This document shows, in pieces, positions 18,001-24,000 of a DNA stretch of 64,000 nt. Positions within the stretch are counted from its first letter, which is position 1; every line of letters begins with the position of its first letter. Position numbers: made by a program. Origin of the DNA: Escherichia coli (GTDB lineage Bacteria > Pseudomonadota > Gammaproteobacteria > Enterobacterales > Enterobacteriaceae); assembly GCF_024298765.1 (NCBI RefSeq), contig NZ_CP101210.1; one strand, given 5' to 3'.

Positions 18001-21000
18001 GATCCAGTTCCGGCAGTAACTGACGATAAAGCGCTCGGTATTCCTGATCATGCTGCGGTGTTTCACCAATGCCGGGCAGATCGACCAGCGTCATTCTGCG
18101 TTCACCGAGCTGCAGGGTAAGACGATGAGCCTGGCGGGTGCAGCCGTTCAGGGGATGCGTGGCGCAGATACGGGACTGAAAAATGGCATTACACAGGCTG
18201 CTCTTGCCGGTGCCGGATTTACCCATAATGCCAATCACGGGCTCGTAATGAATAACACCGTGGAGATGTTCAAGGATTTTCTGGCGTATTTCTTCAGGAA
18301 GAAACGTCAGATATGATTTCACTTGCGCGGAGAGGGAAGAATTGCTGAATGGCATACCGGTATCCTGTTGATTTCACTGAACCGGATCACACTAATCCGG
18401 TTTATCATTCAGGTAATATGGGTGTGAAAATTTTTCCATTGACGGGAAGAAGAGTATGGCTAAAAACAAAGGTATTTGTCGGAATAAAAAATGCAGTAAT
18501 CCTGTTTCAGAATTTGATGAGGCAAATGCCTTAAGGTTATGCGATGATCATTATAAGCTATGGAAGCGAAATAAAGAGAATCGTCGGGTCAGGAATATTT
18601 GTCGTATAATCAGTAAATATGACAAAAGTCTGGACCGGGAGATATTTTATGGAGTAAGAGATGCTGCAAAAAATAAAACGGGAAAGAGAATTATTGAGGA
18701 CGCAAAAATATTACATCAATGCCGTGCCTCAAAGCAAGTAAGAAAAAGTTTTCACAAGGGTGTGCTTCGGTCACGGGAATGGCTTAATACACAGGAGTTA
18801 CTGAGCAGAAAACATATATCTGTTACAGGTGAACTATTTAAATTTTACATAAAAGATATTATCAGATTATATTGCTATAAGTTTCTCTACAGCAGAGAAT
18901 ATCTTAATGAAAACGCATACAAAAAACGATATCAGAGTGATATTCACCCCAGAAAAGTTAATGTTCCGATACTGCAACTTGAAGTTGCATGGATAAATAA
19001 TAATTGCCGTTCAAGTGATTCAAGCACTGATATTATTATCCTTCCGAGGATGATAAGAAGAATGGTTGTATTTAATTATACGAAGATAAATAAACAATTA
19101 GAGAAATTGTTAGGGGGGATAGCACGAAAACAAACCTCAGAAAGGAATAAAGGCGGTCTCTATACCAGAATAAAAAAAGAAAGTGACTTTCTTTCTATGG
19201 ATAGATTTATGGTGGAAATAGAAAATATCATAAGGCCTGAAAGGTTTCCGACATCAATTTATCCAGTCTTTTCACATTCATTTATTGAACGAGAGCTTCC
19301 GCTACTGAATCTTGCTCGATCACAGTATAAAAGAGCAATAAGTAAAAAAGTGGCGAATTCAATTTTTTATACTTTGCAAAAAACTAACGTAGCATTATGG
19401 CTACATCTTGAAATGTTTGCTCTGGTGGCATTCATTAAACTGTATACAGGAAAAGGTTTTGAATTCATAAAAAACATGTGTGCATTTATCGATTATAATA
19501 ATGGGATAATAAAATCCACACATGAAGAACTACTGGGTGAAATTAAGCATAACATTCAGGTTAATTTGAAGGTGAACCCTGATAATTTTCCTGAGCTAAT
19601 AAATATATACAATTCATGTTTTAGTAAAAATATATTTTTATATGATATTAATGATGGTAATTTTAAATGGTGTTCATGATTCTAAAATAGCAAATTCATA
19701 TTGCATATTAATTATCAACAAAAAACACATAATAAAATTTCAATAAGTTACCTGCTAATGGTGCTGATGATCCGCCAGTTTAGTATGGTTATATGATTTG
19801 ATGGTTAATGCTTACAGATAATCACACTTTCTTATGAATAGTATAAATGAGCATGCCATAGTCGTTTGTTCAGAGATAAAATTTACTGAATGAGCTTATG
19901 TTGTGGTTATCTGTACTTACCGGATACGACGACTTATATTCCTCACATTATATGGCTTAACTTTTCTGGGGTAAAGCGATGGAGTTACAGACGCTGATTA
20001 CGATGGTTTACTGTCTCGTTATCACGGGATTTCTGCTGTACTGAATACGTGAACAGGAAAATAACTCCAGAGTAAATCTGCTCTGTTTTTAGGACAGAAA
20101 ACTCCATGCTGGCTGTAAAAGTGAAAAATTAACACCCAGTATGTATGGAAGTCTGAAGATGTTGAGAATGTCGGTATGATACTATATACACGTATTTTAC
20201 TAAGTATTTTTACTAAGCATTTCAGTAAGTGTTATACACGTATTTTCTACTAAGTGTTTTACCAGACATACACGTATTTTCATAAACACTTCTACAAGTG
20301 TTTTCGTTAAGCATTGCTATACACATCCAGTTTAGTAAATCTTTACGTTAACTAAATCAGTTTAATGCTGCTGTAAAACCTTTCTGTTTAAGCAATCAAT
20401 CTGCTATTCGATTTTACTGATGTTACGTTTAACCTTTCCTTAGATTTCGAGTTTCGACGTTAGCTTGAGAAAAGTATCTTTACGTAAAGCCCAGTGAATT
20501 AACTCAAATCCGATTGAGGTAACCTGATGCGATTTACTGTGAGTTTGCGATAACACTGTTAAATGGCTTATGGATGATTTTGTAACGGCGAGATTGATAA
20601 GGTGATTAACTGGCCCTGGTGTTTTTTCTCAGCGTAAGGTGATTATCTTCATCATAAGGCTCTTTTCAGAAAAAGTGTGATGATTGGTTGTGGTGTTTTG
20701 ATTCAGATGAGGATCTGCCAATGATTATGATGTATTGTAAGAAATAACGCCTTCAGAATGTTGGAGCATGCACTTACACAAACTGTTTTTCTAAAATTAA
20801 GGGAACAGTTTAAAGAGTATAAACTGTTCATCTTCTTCAGGATTAAGCTACATTGTTGTTATGACTGACAGGATTGTTTTCTTCCCCTGACTCTGGGCTT
20901 AACAGTCCCTGGCGTTGTAGATATTCACTGACTGACATTCCAGAACTACGGATCCTGTCAGAGATTTTACGAAATTGATCCTTCCATTCTGCAGGTAATT

Positions 21001-24000
21001 TCTTAATTTGTCTGACTTTACAGGCTACACTGTACGGGGTTCGCCCTAGTTTCTCTGCCAGCCAGAAAAGGTGTTTACCAATTTCATCGTCCGGTACATC
21101 CTCCAGAACATCTCGCAATAAACTCTCGTCTGCCTCATTCCATGCCACACCAGCATTTGGGAAACGAGGATCGATCTCTCTTTCCTTCTTCTCCTTCTTA
21201 CTTTGCTCTTTTCGGGATGATACAGATACGACAGAACGTTCTTTTACCGCTGTAATTGCCATAACTGCATTGAGCAGAGATCTGCGCTCCACATCGTTCA
21301 GCATTTTTCCTTCACAGATCAAATCATTCAGGATGTCAATGACTAGATTCAGACTTTCTTCTGTTAGCTTCATATTTCAGACCTTGAAGTATGTAGATAA
21401 TCAGCACAATTACTAATGTGATAAATATCAGAAGATAATTTACAGGTAAACCGGAAAATACATCTGAAGAATAAAGGCCTCAGCTTAACGTTTCAGCCAG
21501 TTTGTGAGCTGATTGAGGTACGGCGATGACATTAACGGGAATTACTCCCCTATAGCTCTGAGCTTATTTTTCACCCTGGCAACATATGGTGGCTACTGCG
21601 CATGGTTTTGGAGTAGATATCTTACTACTCGTAGAATTGTGCTTACTGGTCAGGCCAGCGCACAGGCATTCCGTGCAATCAATAGAACACTGGTTTTTTA
21701 GTCTTCCGTTACCCATCAGGATGTTAGTGCAGATTCCGGTGTATTCGATCAGTTGTTCGGCGAATCAGCGATCGATCACGATGCGATTTCGTATGTTAGG
21801 GATGCTGGTATGATTACTCGCTGAAAAATAATGTGAAAAGGCAGTTTTTCTTTAGACATTTAGCTCATTCATGCTGTTGTTTTACGTTTTGCTGTCGTGT
21901 GCAGGATTATCTTTTCGTTACGGGACGATTCATTCCGTTTTAATCAGGAGCTATTGGCGTTGCTCATTGGTGGGATGCCGTAAAGTTTTACCGCGGCGAT
22001 TAATGATGTGAAGTCAATCCAAATCAACGGAGATCTCTCATCATGAATCAACCAATACACAATGATTACTGGTTATCCCGTTTTGAAAGTATTCTCAACA
22101 GTGCCCTGGTGCAACACCGTGCCGTCTCGTTAATCCGGGTGGATTTACGTTTCCCTGAGCATATGCCTGTCACCATCATGGATCCCGATCCGGATTCAGC
22201 GGTGATTTCTCGTTTTTTCGAATCCCTGAAAGCCAAAATTCAGGCTTACCAGCGGAAAAAACGACGTACCAACAAGCGTGTGCGTGCAACCACCCTGCAT
22301 TATTTCTGGTGTCGAGAGTTTGGCAAGGAAAAAGGCAGGAAACATTATCACGTGATATTACTGCTCAACAAAGATACCTGGTGCTCGCCAGGGGATTTCA
22401 CCGTTCCTTCTTCGCTGGCGACGCTGATCCAACTGGCATGGTGTAGCGCTCTGCATCTTGAGCCCTGGCAGGGTAATGGACTGGTTCATTTTTCCAGGCG
22501 GACGCCTTTCCGTAAACCGGCATCATCTGATGCTCGCCCTTCTTCCGATGATACGCCTTTGTCGGGTGGATGTTCTGAAACCAGGAAGGCTTCAGACAAA
22601 AAGCCGGGTGAAGCCGCTGTTCTCTGGATCAAGCGTGGTGATGTGGAAGCGATGCAGAAAGCCATGGAGAGAGCCCGTTATCTCGTGAAGTATGAGACGA
22701 AGCAGCATGACGGTTCTGGTCAACGTAATTATGGTTGCAGCCGTGGAGCGGGGCGTCTACTGGATGGCAGGTGAACCCTGTAAAACGGCATCCGGTGCCA
22801 GAGTATATGTCACAGTAAGGTCGTTGGCTGACGCCCTTAGCTCGTTTTCTGAAAAAGTTTTTCTGAAGTAATGTGGATTTGCCCCTATATTTCCAGACAT
22901 CTGTTATCACTTAACCCATTACAAGCCCGCTGCCGCAGATATTCCCGTGGCGAGCGATAACCCAGCGCACTATGCGGATGCCATTCGTTATAATGCTCGA
23001 ACGCCTCTGCAAGGTTCTTTGCTGCCGTTAACCCGTCTGGTTTGGGCATGATACTGATGTAGTCACGCTTTATCGTTTTCACGAAGCTCTCTGCGATTCC
23101 GTTACTCTCCGGACTCCGCACCGCCGTGTTCTTCGGTTCAAGTCCCAACATCCGGGCGAACTGGCGTGTTTCATTAGCCCGGTAGCATGAACCATTATCC
23201 GTCAGCCACTCCACTGGAGACGACGGAAGATCGTTGCCGAAGCGGCGTTCCACCGCTCCCAGCATGACGTCCTGTACTGTTTCACTGTTGAAGCCGCCGG
23301 TAGTGACCGCCCAGTGCAGTGCCTCACGATCACAGCAGTCCAGCGCGAACGTGACACGCAGTCTCTCTCCGTTATCACAGCAGAACTCGAACCCGTCAGA
23401 GCACCATCGCTGATTGCTTTCTTTCACGGCCACTCTGCCTGTATGTGCCCGTTTCGATGGCGGTACAGCAGGTTTTCGCTCAAGCAACAGCGCATTCTGG
23501 CGCATGATCCGGTAAACACGTTTGGCATTGATCGCAGGCATACCATCAAGTTCGGCCTGTCTGCGAAGCAGCACCCATACCCGACGATAACCATATGTGG
23601 GCAGCTCTCCGATAACATGGTGTATACGGAGAAGCACATCCGTATCATCAGTGTGACGGCTGCGGCGACCATCTTTCCAGTCATCGGTTCGTCTGAGAAT
23701 GACGTGCAACTGCGCACGCGACACCCGGAGACAACGGCTGACTAAGCTTACTCCCCATCCCCGGGCAATAAGGGCGCGTGCGCTATCCACTTTTTTGCAC
23801 GCCCATATTCAACGGCTTCTTTAAGGAGTTCATTTTCCATCGTTTTTTTGCCGAGCAGGCGCTGGAGTTCTTTAATCTGCTTCATGGCAGCAGCAAGTTC
23901 AGAGGCAGGAACGACCTGTTCTCCTGCGGCCACAGCAGTAAGACTTCCCTCCTGGTATTGCTTGCGCCAGAGAAATAACTGGCTGGCTGCCACACCGTGT

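What the first reader, a model, noticed from the sequence alone, without database searches (positions are those of the whole stretch)
20843..21373. Uncharacterised 176-aa protein flanking the repeat block
Well-formed ORF with hairpin terminator, Lys/Glu-rich linker (KEQSKKEKKEREID) and basic C-terminal region suggestive of nucleic-acid binding; no family recognised. It is convergent with the 407-aa orphan across the repeat array, so the three elements may act together.
Basis: inference. Interest (0 to 1): 0.4.

Follow-up and report, generated by a model that had tools for sequence, protein, structure and literature searches.

The report
Orphan DNA-binding protein on mobile elements
The 176-aa ORF is a real gene for a small, uncharacterised DNA-binding-type protein carried by E. 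coli genomic islands and thousands of Klebsiella plasmids, and it is not functionally tied to the neighbouring 407-aa gene or the repeat block.

Summary
The ORF (20843-21373, minus strand) is real. It equals RefSeq WP_000778605.1, sits in 675 of 5,426 complete E. coli genomes, has a hairpin terminator, and its family evolves under purifying selection (dN/dS about 0.15-0.22). No Pfam, NCBIfam, PHROG, PADLOC or PDB sequence match passes a threshold.

AlphaFold2 gives three parts:
- an N-terminal helical hairpin;
- a disordered Lys/Glu linker;
- a confident C-terminal helical domain (pLDDT 91).

The proposed three-part unit fails:
- The gene lies on a 1,153-bp segment inserted into a conserved non-coding island backbone.
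- That backbone, repeats included, matches in about 1,875 E. coli genomes; only 658 of them carry the gene-bearing version.
- E. coli 55989 has the identical protein with different neighbouring cargo.
- Homologues sit on 2,956 plasmids; the 407-aa protein is on none.

On Klebsiella plasmids the gene follows an ~85-aa and an ~190-aa gene instead. This is ordinary and of low interest.

The parts
20843..21373 (-). Coding sequence of the 176-aa protein, stop codon included. Equals RefSeq WP_000778605.1, which RefSeq calls 'hypothetical protein' and other NCBI/UniRef records call 'DNA-binding protein'.
   Evidence: Purifying selection.
21218..21373 (-). Codons 1-52: N-terminal antiparallel helical hairpin (helices 5-20 and 27-52) with the conserved LICE motif (Cys20). 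Inferred to be a dimerisation module.
21170..21217 (-). Codons 53-68: Lys/Glu-rich linker (SRKEQSKKEKKEREID), predicted disordered.
   Evidence: pLDDT below 50 for residues 49-63. Length and sequence vary among homologues.
20903..21169 (-). Codons 69-157: conserved DPRFPNAG-W motif followed by a five-helix C-terminal domain. The first three helices form a Myb/homeodomain-like helix-turn-helix, and LGRTPYSVACK lies at the turn and recognition helix. Residues 100-157 are basic.
20803..20829 (-). Intrinsic-terminator-like hairpin (10-bp stem, 7-nt loop) 14 nt downstream of the stop codon.
20713..21865 (.). The 1,153-bp gene-bearing segment: the gene, its terminator and 492 bp of upstream DNA. In the three gene-less E. 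coli islands inspected, which are otherwise homologous, a ~290-bp segment takes its place.
   Evidence: BLAST breakpoints against L016, L017 and L018, junction sequences, counts.
21419..21430 (.). Palindrome TGATAAATATCA (TGATA-N2-TATCA), 57 nt upstream of the ATG and the only copy in the window. The same 12-mer occurs in the promoter region of the homologous plasmid operon in pNY9_1 and L006. This is a candidate operator and only a weak lead.

Best explanation
The ORF encodes a small two-domain DNA-binding protein of mobile genetic elements. Most likely it is a dimeric helix-turn-helix transcription regulator, probably a repressor or autoregulator.

Shown or predicted here:
- An N-terminal antiparallel helical hairpin.
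- A flexible Lys/Glu linker joining it to the C-terminal domain.
- A C-terminal domain whose core is a Myb/homeodomain-type tri-helical helix-turn-helix, with the family-invariant GRTPYSVAxK segment on the putative recognition helix.

Inferred: the hairpin pairs two subunits into a four-helix bundle, and the protein binds DNA.

In this E. coli island the gene is a self-contained, monocistronic unit with its own upstream region and terminator. It sits on a 1,153-bp segment inside the conserved non-coding backbone between the island's variable cargo slot and the YfjJ-like (inovirus Gp2 family) gene. It does not form a unit with the 407-aa gene or the repeat block.

On Klebsiella-type plasmids the same protein is the third gene of an operon, after an ~85-aa and an ~190-aa winged-helix-like protein. 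That operon lies behind an array of GATATGAT palindromes, often next to an Hha gene. This suggests a role in regulating mobile-element genes. The actual targets are unknown.
For: Real, selected gene:
- Homologues in Escherichia, Klebsiella, Salmonella, Enterobacter, Raoultella, Citrobacter, Serratia and others.
- dN/dS 0.15-0.22.
- Start MK(L/V/I)TE conserved across homologues.

Architecture:
- AF2 on the full protein gives the hairpin, a disordered linker and a helical C-terminal domain.
- The C-terminal domain alone scores pLDDT 90.9.

Remote sequence links:
- The family profile hits HNH_repeat proteins (E = 2.8e-7 and 3e-5 over 1.8 billion proteins) and a GcrA/Myb_DNA-bind_6 repeat protein (E = 8.6e-4).
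- hhalign gives 89.5% probability to an HNH_repeat unit and 79.8% to the GcrA/Myb-like protein.

Other support:
- The most conserved residues (G110 R111 T112 P113 ... A117 K119) lie at the turn and third helix.
- Residues 100-157 carry net charge +8.

Independence from neighbours.

Mobile-element association:
- 2,956 plasmids carry a homologue, 1,997 of them conjugative.
- Plasmid operon context.
- Palindromic operator arrays upstream of the plasmid operon.
Against: - No experiment, and no sequence model above threshold.
- Foldseek against the PDB gives no significant match for the C-terminal domain (best E about 1).
- hhalign against the GcrA DNA-binding domain itself is not significant.
- SANT-type domains of the same fold can bind proteins rather than DNA.
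- Dimerisation is inferred only from the hairpin shape.
- No repeated operator lies upstream of the E. coli gene. There is one 12-mer shared with two plasmid promoters, and K. oxytoca and L019 lack it.
- On plasmids the palindromes could equally be bound by the ~190-aa winged-helix-like protein.
- The whole protein is slightly acidic.
Confidence: 0.6

Rival explanations
1. One reading: the 176-aa protein, the convergent 407-aa orphan and the intervening repeat array form one functional system, for example a regulator that binds the repeats to control the 407-aa gene.
For: The three lie together in this window, and the whole 3.8-kb block recurs in 541 E. coli genomes. Repeat copies stay better conserved than their surroundings in a diverged allele.
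Against: - E. coli 55989 has the identical protein and the repeats but different cargo instead of the 407-aa gene.
- The repeats occur in the three gene-less islands inspected, and the backbone they sit in matches in about 1,875 E. coli genomes, only 658 of which have the gene.
- The 407-aa gene is in 967 genomes and the 176-aa gene in 675.
- 2,956 plasmids carry a homologue and none carries the 407-aa protein.
- The K. oxytoca and plasmid loci fetched lack the repeat motif.
Confidence: 0.04
2. It is a nucleoid-associated or H-NS/Hha-modulating factor of mobile elements. An oligomerisation domain, linker and DNA-binding domain would coat or remodel AT-rich horizontally acquired DNA, rather than act as a site-specific regulator.
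For: - The domain order (oligomerising helices, flexible charged linker, DNA-binding domain) parallels H-NS-type proteins.
- On Klebsiella plasmids the gene lies one or two genes from an Hha-family gene.
- The E. coli island is AT-rich here (26-38% GC) and also carries H-NS-family and ProQ/FinO genes.
Against: - No sequence relationship to H-NS (hhalign probability 0.8%; no Pfam Histone_HNS hit).
- The predicted C-terminal fold is all-helical.
- A strongly conserved recognition helix suggests a specific site.
- Proximity to Hha is seen in only two of the plasmid contexts read.
Confidence: 0.15
3. It is a protein-binding (SANT-like) subunit of an uncharacterised plasmid system made with the ~85-aa and ~190-aa proteins, perhaps for maintenance, exclusion or defence. 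The solo E. coli copy would then be a remnant with little function of its own.
For: - The gene directly follows an ~190-aa homologue (56-93% identical to one another) in every plasmid-type locus read, even for family members only 30-40% identical to the E. coli protein.
- A frameshifted copy exists in one E. coli genome.
Against: - The E. coli copy is intact and at least 99% identical in 669 genomes.
- The K. oxytoca solo copy is likewise intact in many assemblies.
- The 85/190-aa pair occurs in at least 5,000 plasmids, including about 2,000 E. coli plasmids, where in the one read the third gene is absent. Neither side therefore needs the other.
- No PADLOC match.
Confidence: 0.15
4. The ORF is a non-functional or decaying open reading frame.
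For: RefSeq calls it hypothetical. There is no strong sigma-70 consensus promoter close to the start.
Against: - Purifying selection across genera.
- A conserved two-domain architecture with a confident structure prediction.
- A terminator is present.
- Thousands of intact copies exist.
Confidence: 0.03

Closest known systems
Homing-endonuclease-associated repeat (Pfam PF18780, HNH_repeat)
   Same: This is the best sequence-level link. Residues ~94-150 (helix, LAxKLGRTPYS..., F-x-x-I..., G-hydrophobic) align with one repeat unit. The family profile hits multi-repeat HNH_repeat proteins at E = 2.8e-7 and 3e-5, and hhalign gives 89.5% probability.
   Different: - The Pfam model itself does not reach its cut-off (best E = 0.0018, in 2 of 21 members).
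- There is one unit here, not a tandem array, and no HNH nuclease domain.
- This family adds an N-terminal W-containing helix, the DPRFPNAG motif, a hairpin domain and a charged linker.
Myb/SANT and homeodomain-type tri-helical DNA-binding domains (e.g. Rap1, c-Myb R2, Reb1, engrailed)
   Different: - No Pfam Myb or SANT hit, and Foldseek is not significant.
- The aromatic spacing is 26 residues rather than about 19.
- Two extra C-terminal helices are present.
- It is bacterial and borne on mobile elements.
GcrA cell-cycle regulator, N-terminal DNA-binding domain (PDB 5YIU)
   Different: - The direct profile-sequence comparison is not significant.
- The domain order is reversed: the DNA-binding domain is C-terminal here.
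- There is no GcrA sigma70-binding domain.
- The hosts are Enterobacteriaceae and their mobile elements, not alphaproteobacterial chromosomes.
H-NS-type nucleoid-associated proteins
   Same: Analogous layout only: an N-terminal helical oligomerisation module, a flexible charged linker and a C-terminal DNA-binding module. Both live on horizontally acquired DNA, and the plasmid copies neighbour Hha genes.
   Different: No sequence or fold relationship (no Pfam hit).

Membership tests
Pfam PF18780 HNH_repeat | Score above the Pfam gathering threshold (26 bits) | tested here: not met
   No hit for the E. coli protein. Only 2 of 21 family members hit, best E = 0.0018.
Pfam PF18780 HNH_repeat | Significant similarity to bona fide members | tested here: met
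   The family profile hits P0141 (16 HNH_repeat units) at E = 2.8e-7 and P0152 at 3e-5 in a 1.8-billion-protein library. hhalign gives 89.5% probability, E = 2e-6, over 56 columns.
Pfam PF18780 HNH_repeat | Tandem repeats, associated with an HNH endonuclease domain | tested here: not met
   A single unit and no nuclease domain.
Myb/SANT (homeodomain-like) helix-turn-helix | Three-helix bundle with helix-turn-helix geometry that superposes on known members | tested here: inconclusive
Myb/SANT (homeodomain-like) helix-turn-helix | Match to Pfam Myb_DNA-binding, Myb_DNA-bind_6 or SANT models | tested here: not met
   No hit at E <= 1. There is only an indirect link through P0168.
Myb/SANT (homeodomain-like) helix-turn-helix | Binds DNA through the third helix | not testable with these tools
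   This needs EMSA, ChIP or a complex structure. The only support is that conservation peaks on the third helix.
GcrA family (Pfam PF07750) | N-terminal GcrA DNA-binding domain plus C-terminal sigma70-interacting domain | tested here: not met
   No Pfam GcrA hit. hhalign against the GcrA DNA-binding domain gives 1.4% probability. The domain order differs.
H-NS family | Homology to H-NS N-terminal coiled coil or C-terminal DNA-binding domain | tested here: not met
No Pfam hit.
Known anti-phage defence systems (PADLOC-DB) | Match to a defence-system protein model | tested here: not met
   No hits for the 176-aa protein, the 407-aa protein, or the plasmid partners above noise.
Known phage regulators (PHROGs; INPHARED phage genomes) | Homologue in phage genomes or phage protein families | tested here: not met
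   tblastn against 50,697 phage records finds no match. The best PHROG hit has E = 0.0032 with no stretch passing on its own.

The most novel reading that the evidence does not exclude
The family may be the DNA-binding component of an undescribed regulatory module of enterobacterial conjugative plasmids. The module would comprise an ~85-aa protein, an ~190-aa winged-helix-like protein and the ~160-aa Myb-like protein, sitting behind arrays of GATATGAT palindromes on thousands of Klebsiella IncFIB(K)/IncFII plasmids. The chromosomal solo copies in E. coli islands and beside tRNA-Arg in K. oxytoca would then act as orphan regulators that cross-talk with incoming plasmids. The near-invariant Cys20 in a CsoR-like hairpin could also make the protein redox- or metal-responsive.
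Probability: 0.12. Interest if true: 0.45.

Novelty: new member of a known kind. Interest (0 to 1): 0.2.

Why it matters
The stakes are modest. The protein belongs to an uncharacterised, Pfam-less family that is nevertheless very common. It is in about 12% of complete E. coli genomes and on about 3,000 sequenced plasmids, mostly the large conjugative Klebsiella plasmids that carry resistance and virulence genes.

A defined regulator on those plasmids would interest plasmid biologists. A bacterial Myb/homeodomain-like fold related to the homing-endonuclease repeat would be a small addition to helix-turn-helix taxonomy.

For the scan itself, the useful result is negative. The gene, the 407-aa orphan and the repeats are three independent pieces of a mosaic island, not a system.

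Tried and rejected
Searches that found nothing usable:
- Pfam, NCBIfam, PHROGs and PADLOC on the protein: nothing above cut-off. The weak NikA-like (E = 0.011) and PHROG 'D5-like regulator' (E = 0.0032) hits are treated as noise.
- PDB sequence searches with the protein, the N-terminal part and the C-terminal profile: nothing.
- Foldseek against the PDB on the C-terminal domain: no significant hit. The afdb50 library was unavailable.
- Phage genomes by tblastn: none.
- Rfam on 19500-22200: none.
- Literature searches by accession (WP_000778605, WP_004152104, WP_001107214), by PF18780, and by yfjJ/yfjP with defence hotspot: nothing on this protein.

Hypotheses tested and dropped:
- GcrA homology: hhalign is not significant.
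- H-NS homology, prompted by a shared GRTP motif: rejected.
- Remnants of the plasmid partner genes in the window: tblastn finds none.
- The alternative cargo genes as known defence genes: no PADLOC hit.

Shared operator motif between the E. coli gene and its homologues:
- The GATATGAT palindromes are confined to the plasmid operon promoters.
- E. coli shares only one 12-mer with two of those promoters.
- K. oxytoca and L019 share nothing.
- I keep this as a weak lead, not as evidence.
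Full report
**What is there.** The ORF at 20843-21373 on the minus strand is exactly as described: ATG start, 176 aa. 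A 10-bp hairpin at 20803-20829 lies 14 nt after the stop and is followed by a T-rich run. The window is E. coli DNA. The 3.8-kb stretch around the gene is 100% identical to many complete genomes. In strain 104 the gene is annotated WP_000778605.1, 'hypothetical protein'. It lies in a mosaic CP4-like genomic island: DUF4942, CbtA/CbeA, a JAB-domain (RadC-like) protein, an antirestriction protein, DUF932, a WYL regulator, a YeeP/YfjP-like GTPase, then further on a YfjJ-like 'inovirus Gp2 family' gene, IS2 and ireA. The Pfam domains of the neighbours agree with this.

**Is it a real gene?** Yes.
- The word-indexed search found 68 relatives, and the exhaustive profile search found 105 cluster representatives among 1.8 billion. 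Many of these are fragments, so the family is small and enterobacterial.
- Between the E. coli, K. oxytoca and plasmid copies, synonymous sites are saturated (pS 0.64-0.90) while pN is 0.20-0.40. Where it can be calculated, dN/dS is 0.15-0.22.
- All full-length homologues start MK(L/V/I)TE and share two conserved blocks separated by a variable charged linker.

**What kind of protein?** No curated family matches in Pfam, NCBIfam, PHROGs or PADLOC. PDB sequence searches find nothing either. AlphaFold2 on the family alignment gives:
- an N-terminal antiparallel hairpin (helices 5-20 and 27-52);
- a disordered stretch at residues 49-63, overlapping the KEQSKKEKKEREID run;
- a helical C-terminal domain.

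Predicted alone, the C-terminal domain is confident: pLDDT 90.9, pTM 0.82, five helices.

- Reb1 and c-Myb.
- SNAPc4.

These scores are modest. Foldseek finds nothing significant, so I claim only fold class, not homology.

At sequence level the family profile reaches two kinds of protein:
- proteins made of 'homing endonuclease associated repeats' (PF18780), at E = 2.8e-7 and 3e-5;
- one GcrA/Myb_DNA-bind_6 repeat protein, at E = 8.6e-4.

hhalign supports both links, at 89.5% and 79.8% probability. A direct comparison with the GcrA DNA-binding domain is not significant. I recalled that GcrA sequence from memory and verified it against the PDB.

**Does it work with the 407-aa gene and the repeats?** No.
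1. *Counts in complete E. coli genomes.* Of 5,426 genomes, 675 carry the 176-aa gene and 967 carry the 407-aa gene. The whole 3.8-kb block is in 541.
2. *A carrier with different cargo.* E. coli 55989 encodes the identical 176-aa protein next to the same YfjJ-like gene. Between the GTPase gene and window position 20056, however, it carries two unrelated genes of 320 and 284 aa. Homology breaks at 18430 and resumes at 20056. The 407-aa gene therefore occupies a swappable cargo slot. Strains 165, TUM9868 and A0 34/86 hold yet other genes there.
3. *The repeats belong to the island backbone.* The repeat block at 20185-20311 contains three exact ATACACGTATTTT copies, and no other exact copy occurs in the 64 kb. 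It sits in non-coding backbone DNA, window 20057-20712. That stretch together with 21866-22042 matches in about 1,875 E. coli genomes, but only 658 of them carry the gene.
4. *Gene-less islands.* In three such islands, both flanks align at 81-93% identity. Window 20713-21865 (1,153 bp: the gene, its terminator and 492 bp upstream) is replaced by about 290 bp of unrelated sequence, with no trace of the gene. The gene is thus an indel within the backbone, and the repeats exist independently of it.
5. *Outside E. coli.* Homologues at 50-57% identity lie on 2,956 of 72,556 plasmids, 2,651 of them from Klebsiella and mostly conjugative IncFIB(K)/IncFII types. The 407-aa protein matches no plasmid.
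6. *K. oxytoca.* There the 61%-identical homologue sits 436 bp downstream of tRNA-Arg(tct), beside folD. It stays put whether that site is empty or holds a prophage or a CP4-like island.
7. *Motif outside E. coli.* None of the Klebsiella or plasmid loci fetched up to that point contains the repeat motif.

**What does travel with it elsewhere?** In every plasmid-type locus I read (L006, L010, L011, L012, L019, L020, L021), the gene directly follows a homologue of an ~190-aa protein. That protein has an N-terminal 'RRPSPLQRR...' region with a weak PaaX-like winged-helix signal, and the copies are 56-93% identical to one another. An ~85-aa gene usually precedes it. These partners also have no known family.

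The plasmid operon's upstream region carries two to four GATATGAT-type palindromes, for example ATCATATCTGATATGAT.

The linkage is not obligatory:
- The 85/190-aa pair occurs on at least 5,000 plasmids, including about 2,000 from E. coli. In the one I read, the third gene is absent.
- The E. coli and K. oxytoca chromosomal copies are solo, and no remnant of the partner genes is in the window.
- Upstream of the E. coli gene there is a single palindrome, TGATAAATATCA at 21419-21430. It is identical to a 12-mer in two of the plasmid promoters. That is a weak lead for autoregulation and nothing more.

**Best reading.** This is a small, probably dimeric, helix-turn-helix DNA-binding regulator of mobile elements, present here as a self-contained unit.
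- Shown: the gene is real and selected, and its distribution is independent of its neighbours.
- Predicted: the domain architecture and the fold class.
- Inferred: DNA binding, dimerisation and a regulatory role.

Rivals I cannot exclude are a nucleoid-associated or Hha/H-NS-related factor and a protein-binding subunit of the plasmid three-gene module. The three-element system is essentially refuted, and a dead ORF is very unlikely.

**Novelty and interest.** Databases already call many copies 'DNA-binding protein'. No paper in the held library mentions the accessions. It is a new, uncharacterised member of a known kind, a helix-turn-helix regulator on mobile DNA. Interest is low, about 0.2. 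It rises somewhat only if the plasmid module proves to be a real regulatory system.

Noticed in passing
window 20057-20712 (repeat block 20185-20311) and 21866-22042: About 830 bp of conserved non-coding backbone lies upstream of the YfjJ-like 'inovirus Gp2 family' (Rep-related, PF23343 E = 4.4e-9) gene. It matches in about 1,875 E. coli genomes at up to 7 places each. It carries iteron-like repeats: three ATACACGTATTTT copies plus ACTAAGTRTTTT sub-repeats with a period of about 12-13 bp, and copy number varies between islands. No Rfam match. It might be an origin or regulatory region of CP4-like islands.
   Followed up: partly
window 18431-20055: A sharply bounded variable cargo slot lies between the YeeP/YfjP-like GTPase gene and the backbone. 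Here it holds the AT-rich (26-35% GC) 407-aa orphan. Other strains hold unrelated genes: 320 + 284 aa in 55989, and 322, 376 or 339 aa elsewhere. None matches Pfam or PADLOC. The position corresponds to the yfjK-rnlAB cargo region of K-12 CP4-57 (from memory), so undescribed defence genes are possible.
   Followed up: partly
window 20068-20085: A bidirectional terminator-like hairpin (CAGAGTAAATCTGCTCTG followed by TTTTT) lies 12 nt inside the right boundary of the cargo slot (20056) and is conserved in all islands compared.
   Followed up: no
window 19600-20450 versus L013 (strain AR_0150): In an allele where the 176-aa gene and its flanks (20500-21900) are essentially identical to the window (99-100% per 100-bp bin), the spacer and repeat region is only 57-83% identical. 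This is a recombination or hypervariability patch. Two of the three 13-mer copies keep 12 of 13 bases while their surroundings diverge.
   Followed up: partly
window 21513-21701 (+): An unannotated 62-codon ORF with a TTG start lies inside the gene-bearing segment. It has a hydrophobic stretch (IALSLFFTLATYGGYCAWFW) and is divergent from the 176-aa gene. A terminator-like hairpin also lies at 21464-21483 (-) within the 5' region of the 176-aa gene. All E. coli copies are nearly identical, so conservation gives no test.
   Followed up: no
L012 7781-10780 (pNY9_1); also L006, L010, L011, L020: A conserved plasmid block runs: palindromic GATATGAT operator array, 85-89-aa gene, ~190-aa winged-helix-like gene, ~160-aa homologue of the finding, then often a 122-aa membrane protein and an Hha-family gene. 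All are uncharacterised. The first two genes alone occur on at least 5,000 plasmids, including E. coli and Salmonella F-like plasmids.
   Followed up: partly
L014 5990-6400 (E. coli E203449): A frameshifted, unannotated copy about 71% identical to the 176-aa gene lies beside a PAPS-reductase/IbrB-like/PerC cluster and a type II Zorya system. In all, 51 E. coli records have such 60-80% identity matches.
   Followed up: partly
L003 7489-8492 (K. oxytoca): The homologue lies 436 bp downstream of tRNA-Arg(tct) beside folD. That site is empty, or holds a prophage or a CP4-like island, in different strains, and the gene always marks its distal edge.
   Followed up: partly
window 22885-24158 and 24307-26355: An IS2 copy (orfA/orfB with programmed frameshift) sits immediately downstream of the YfjJ-like gene, followed by the siderophore receptor gene ireA. 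Further along the same island in strain 104 are H-NS-family, ProQ/FinO, hlyE and fec genes. This shows how mosaic the island is.
   Followed up: no
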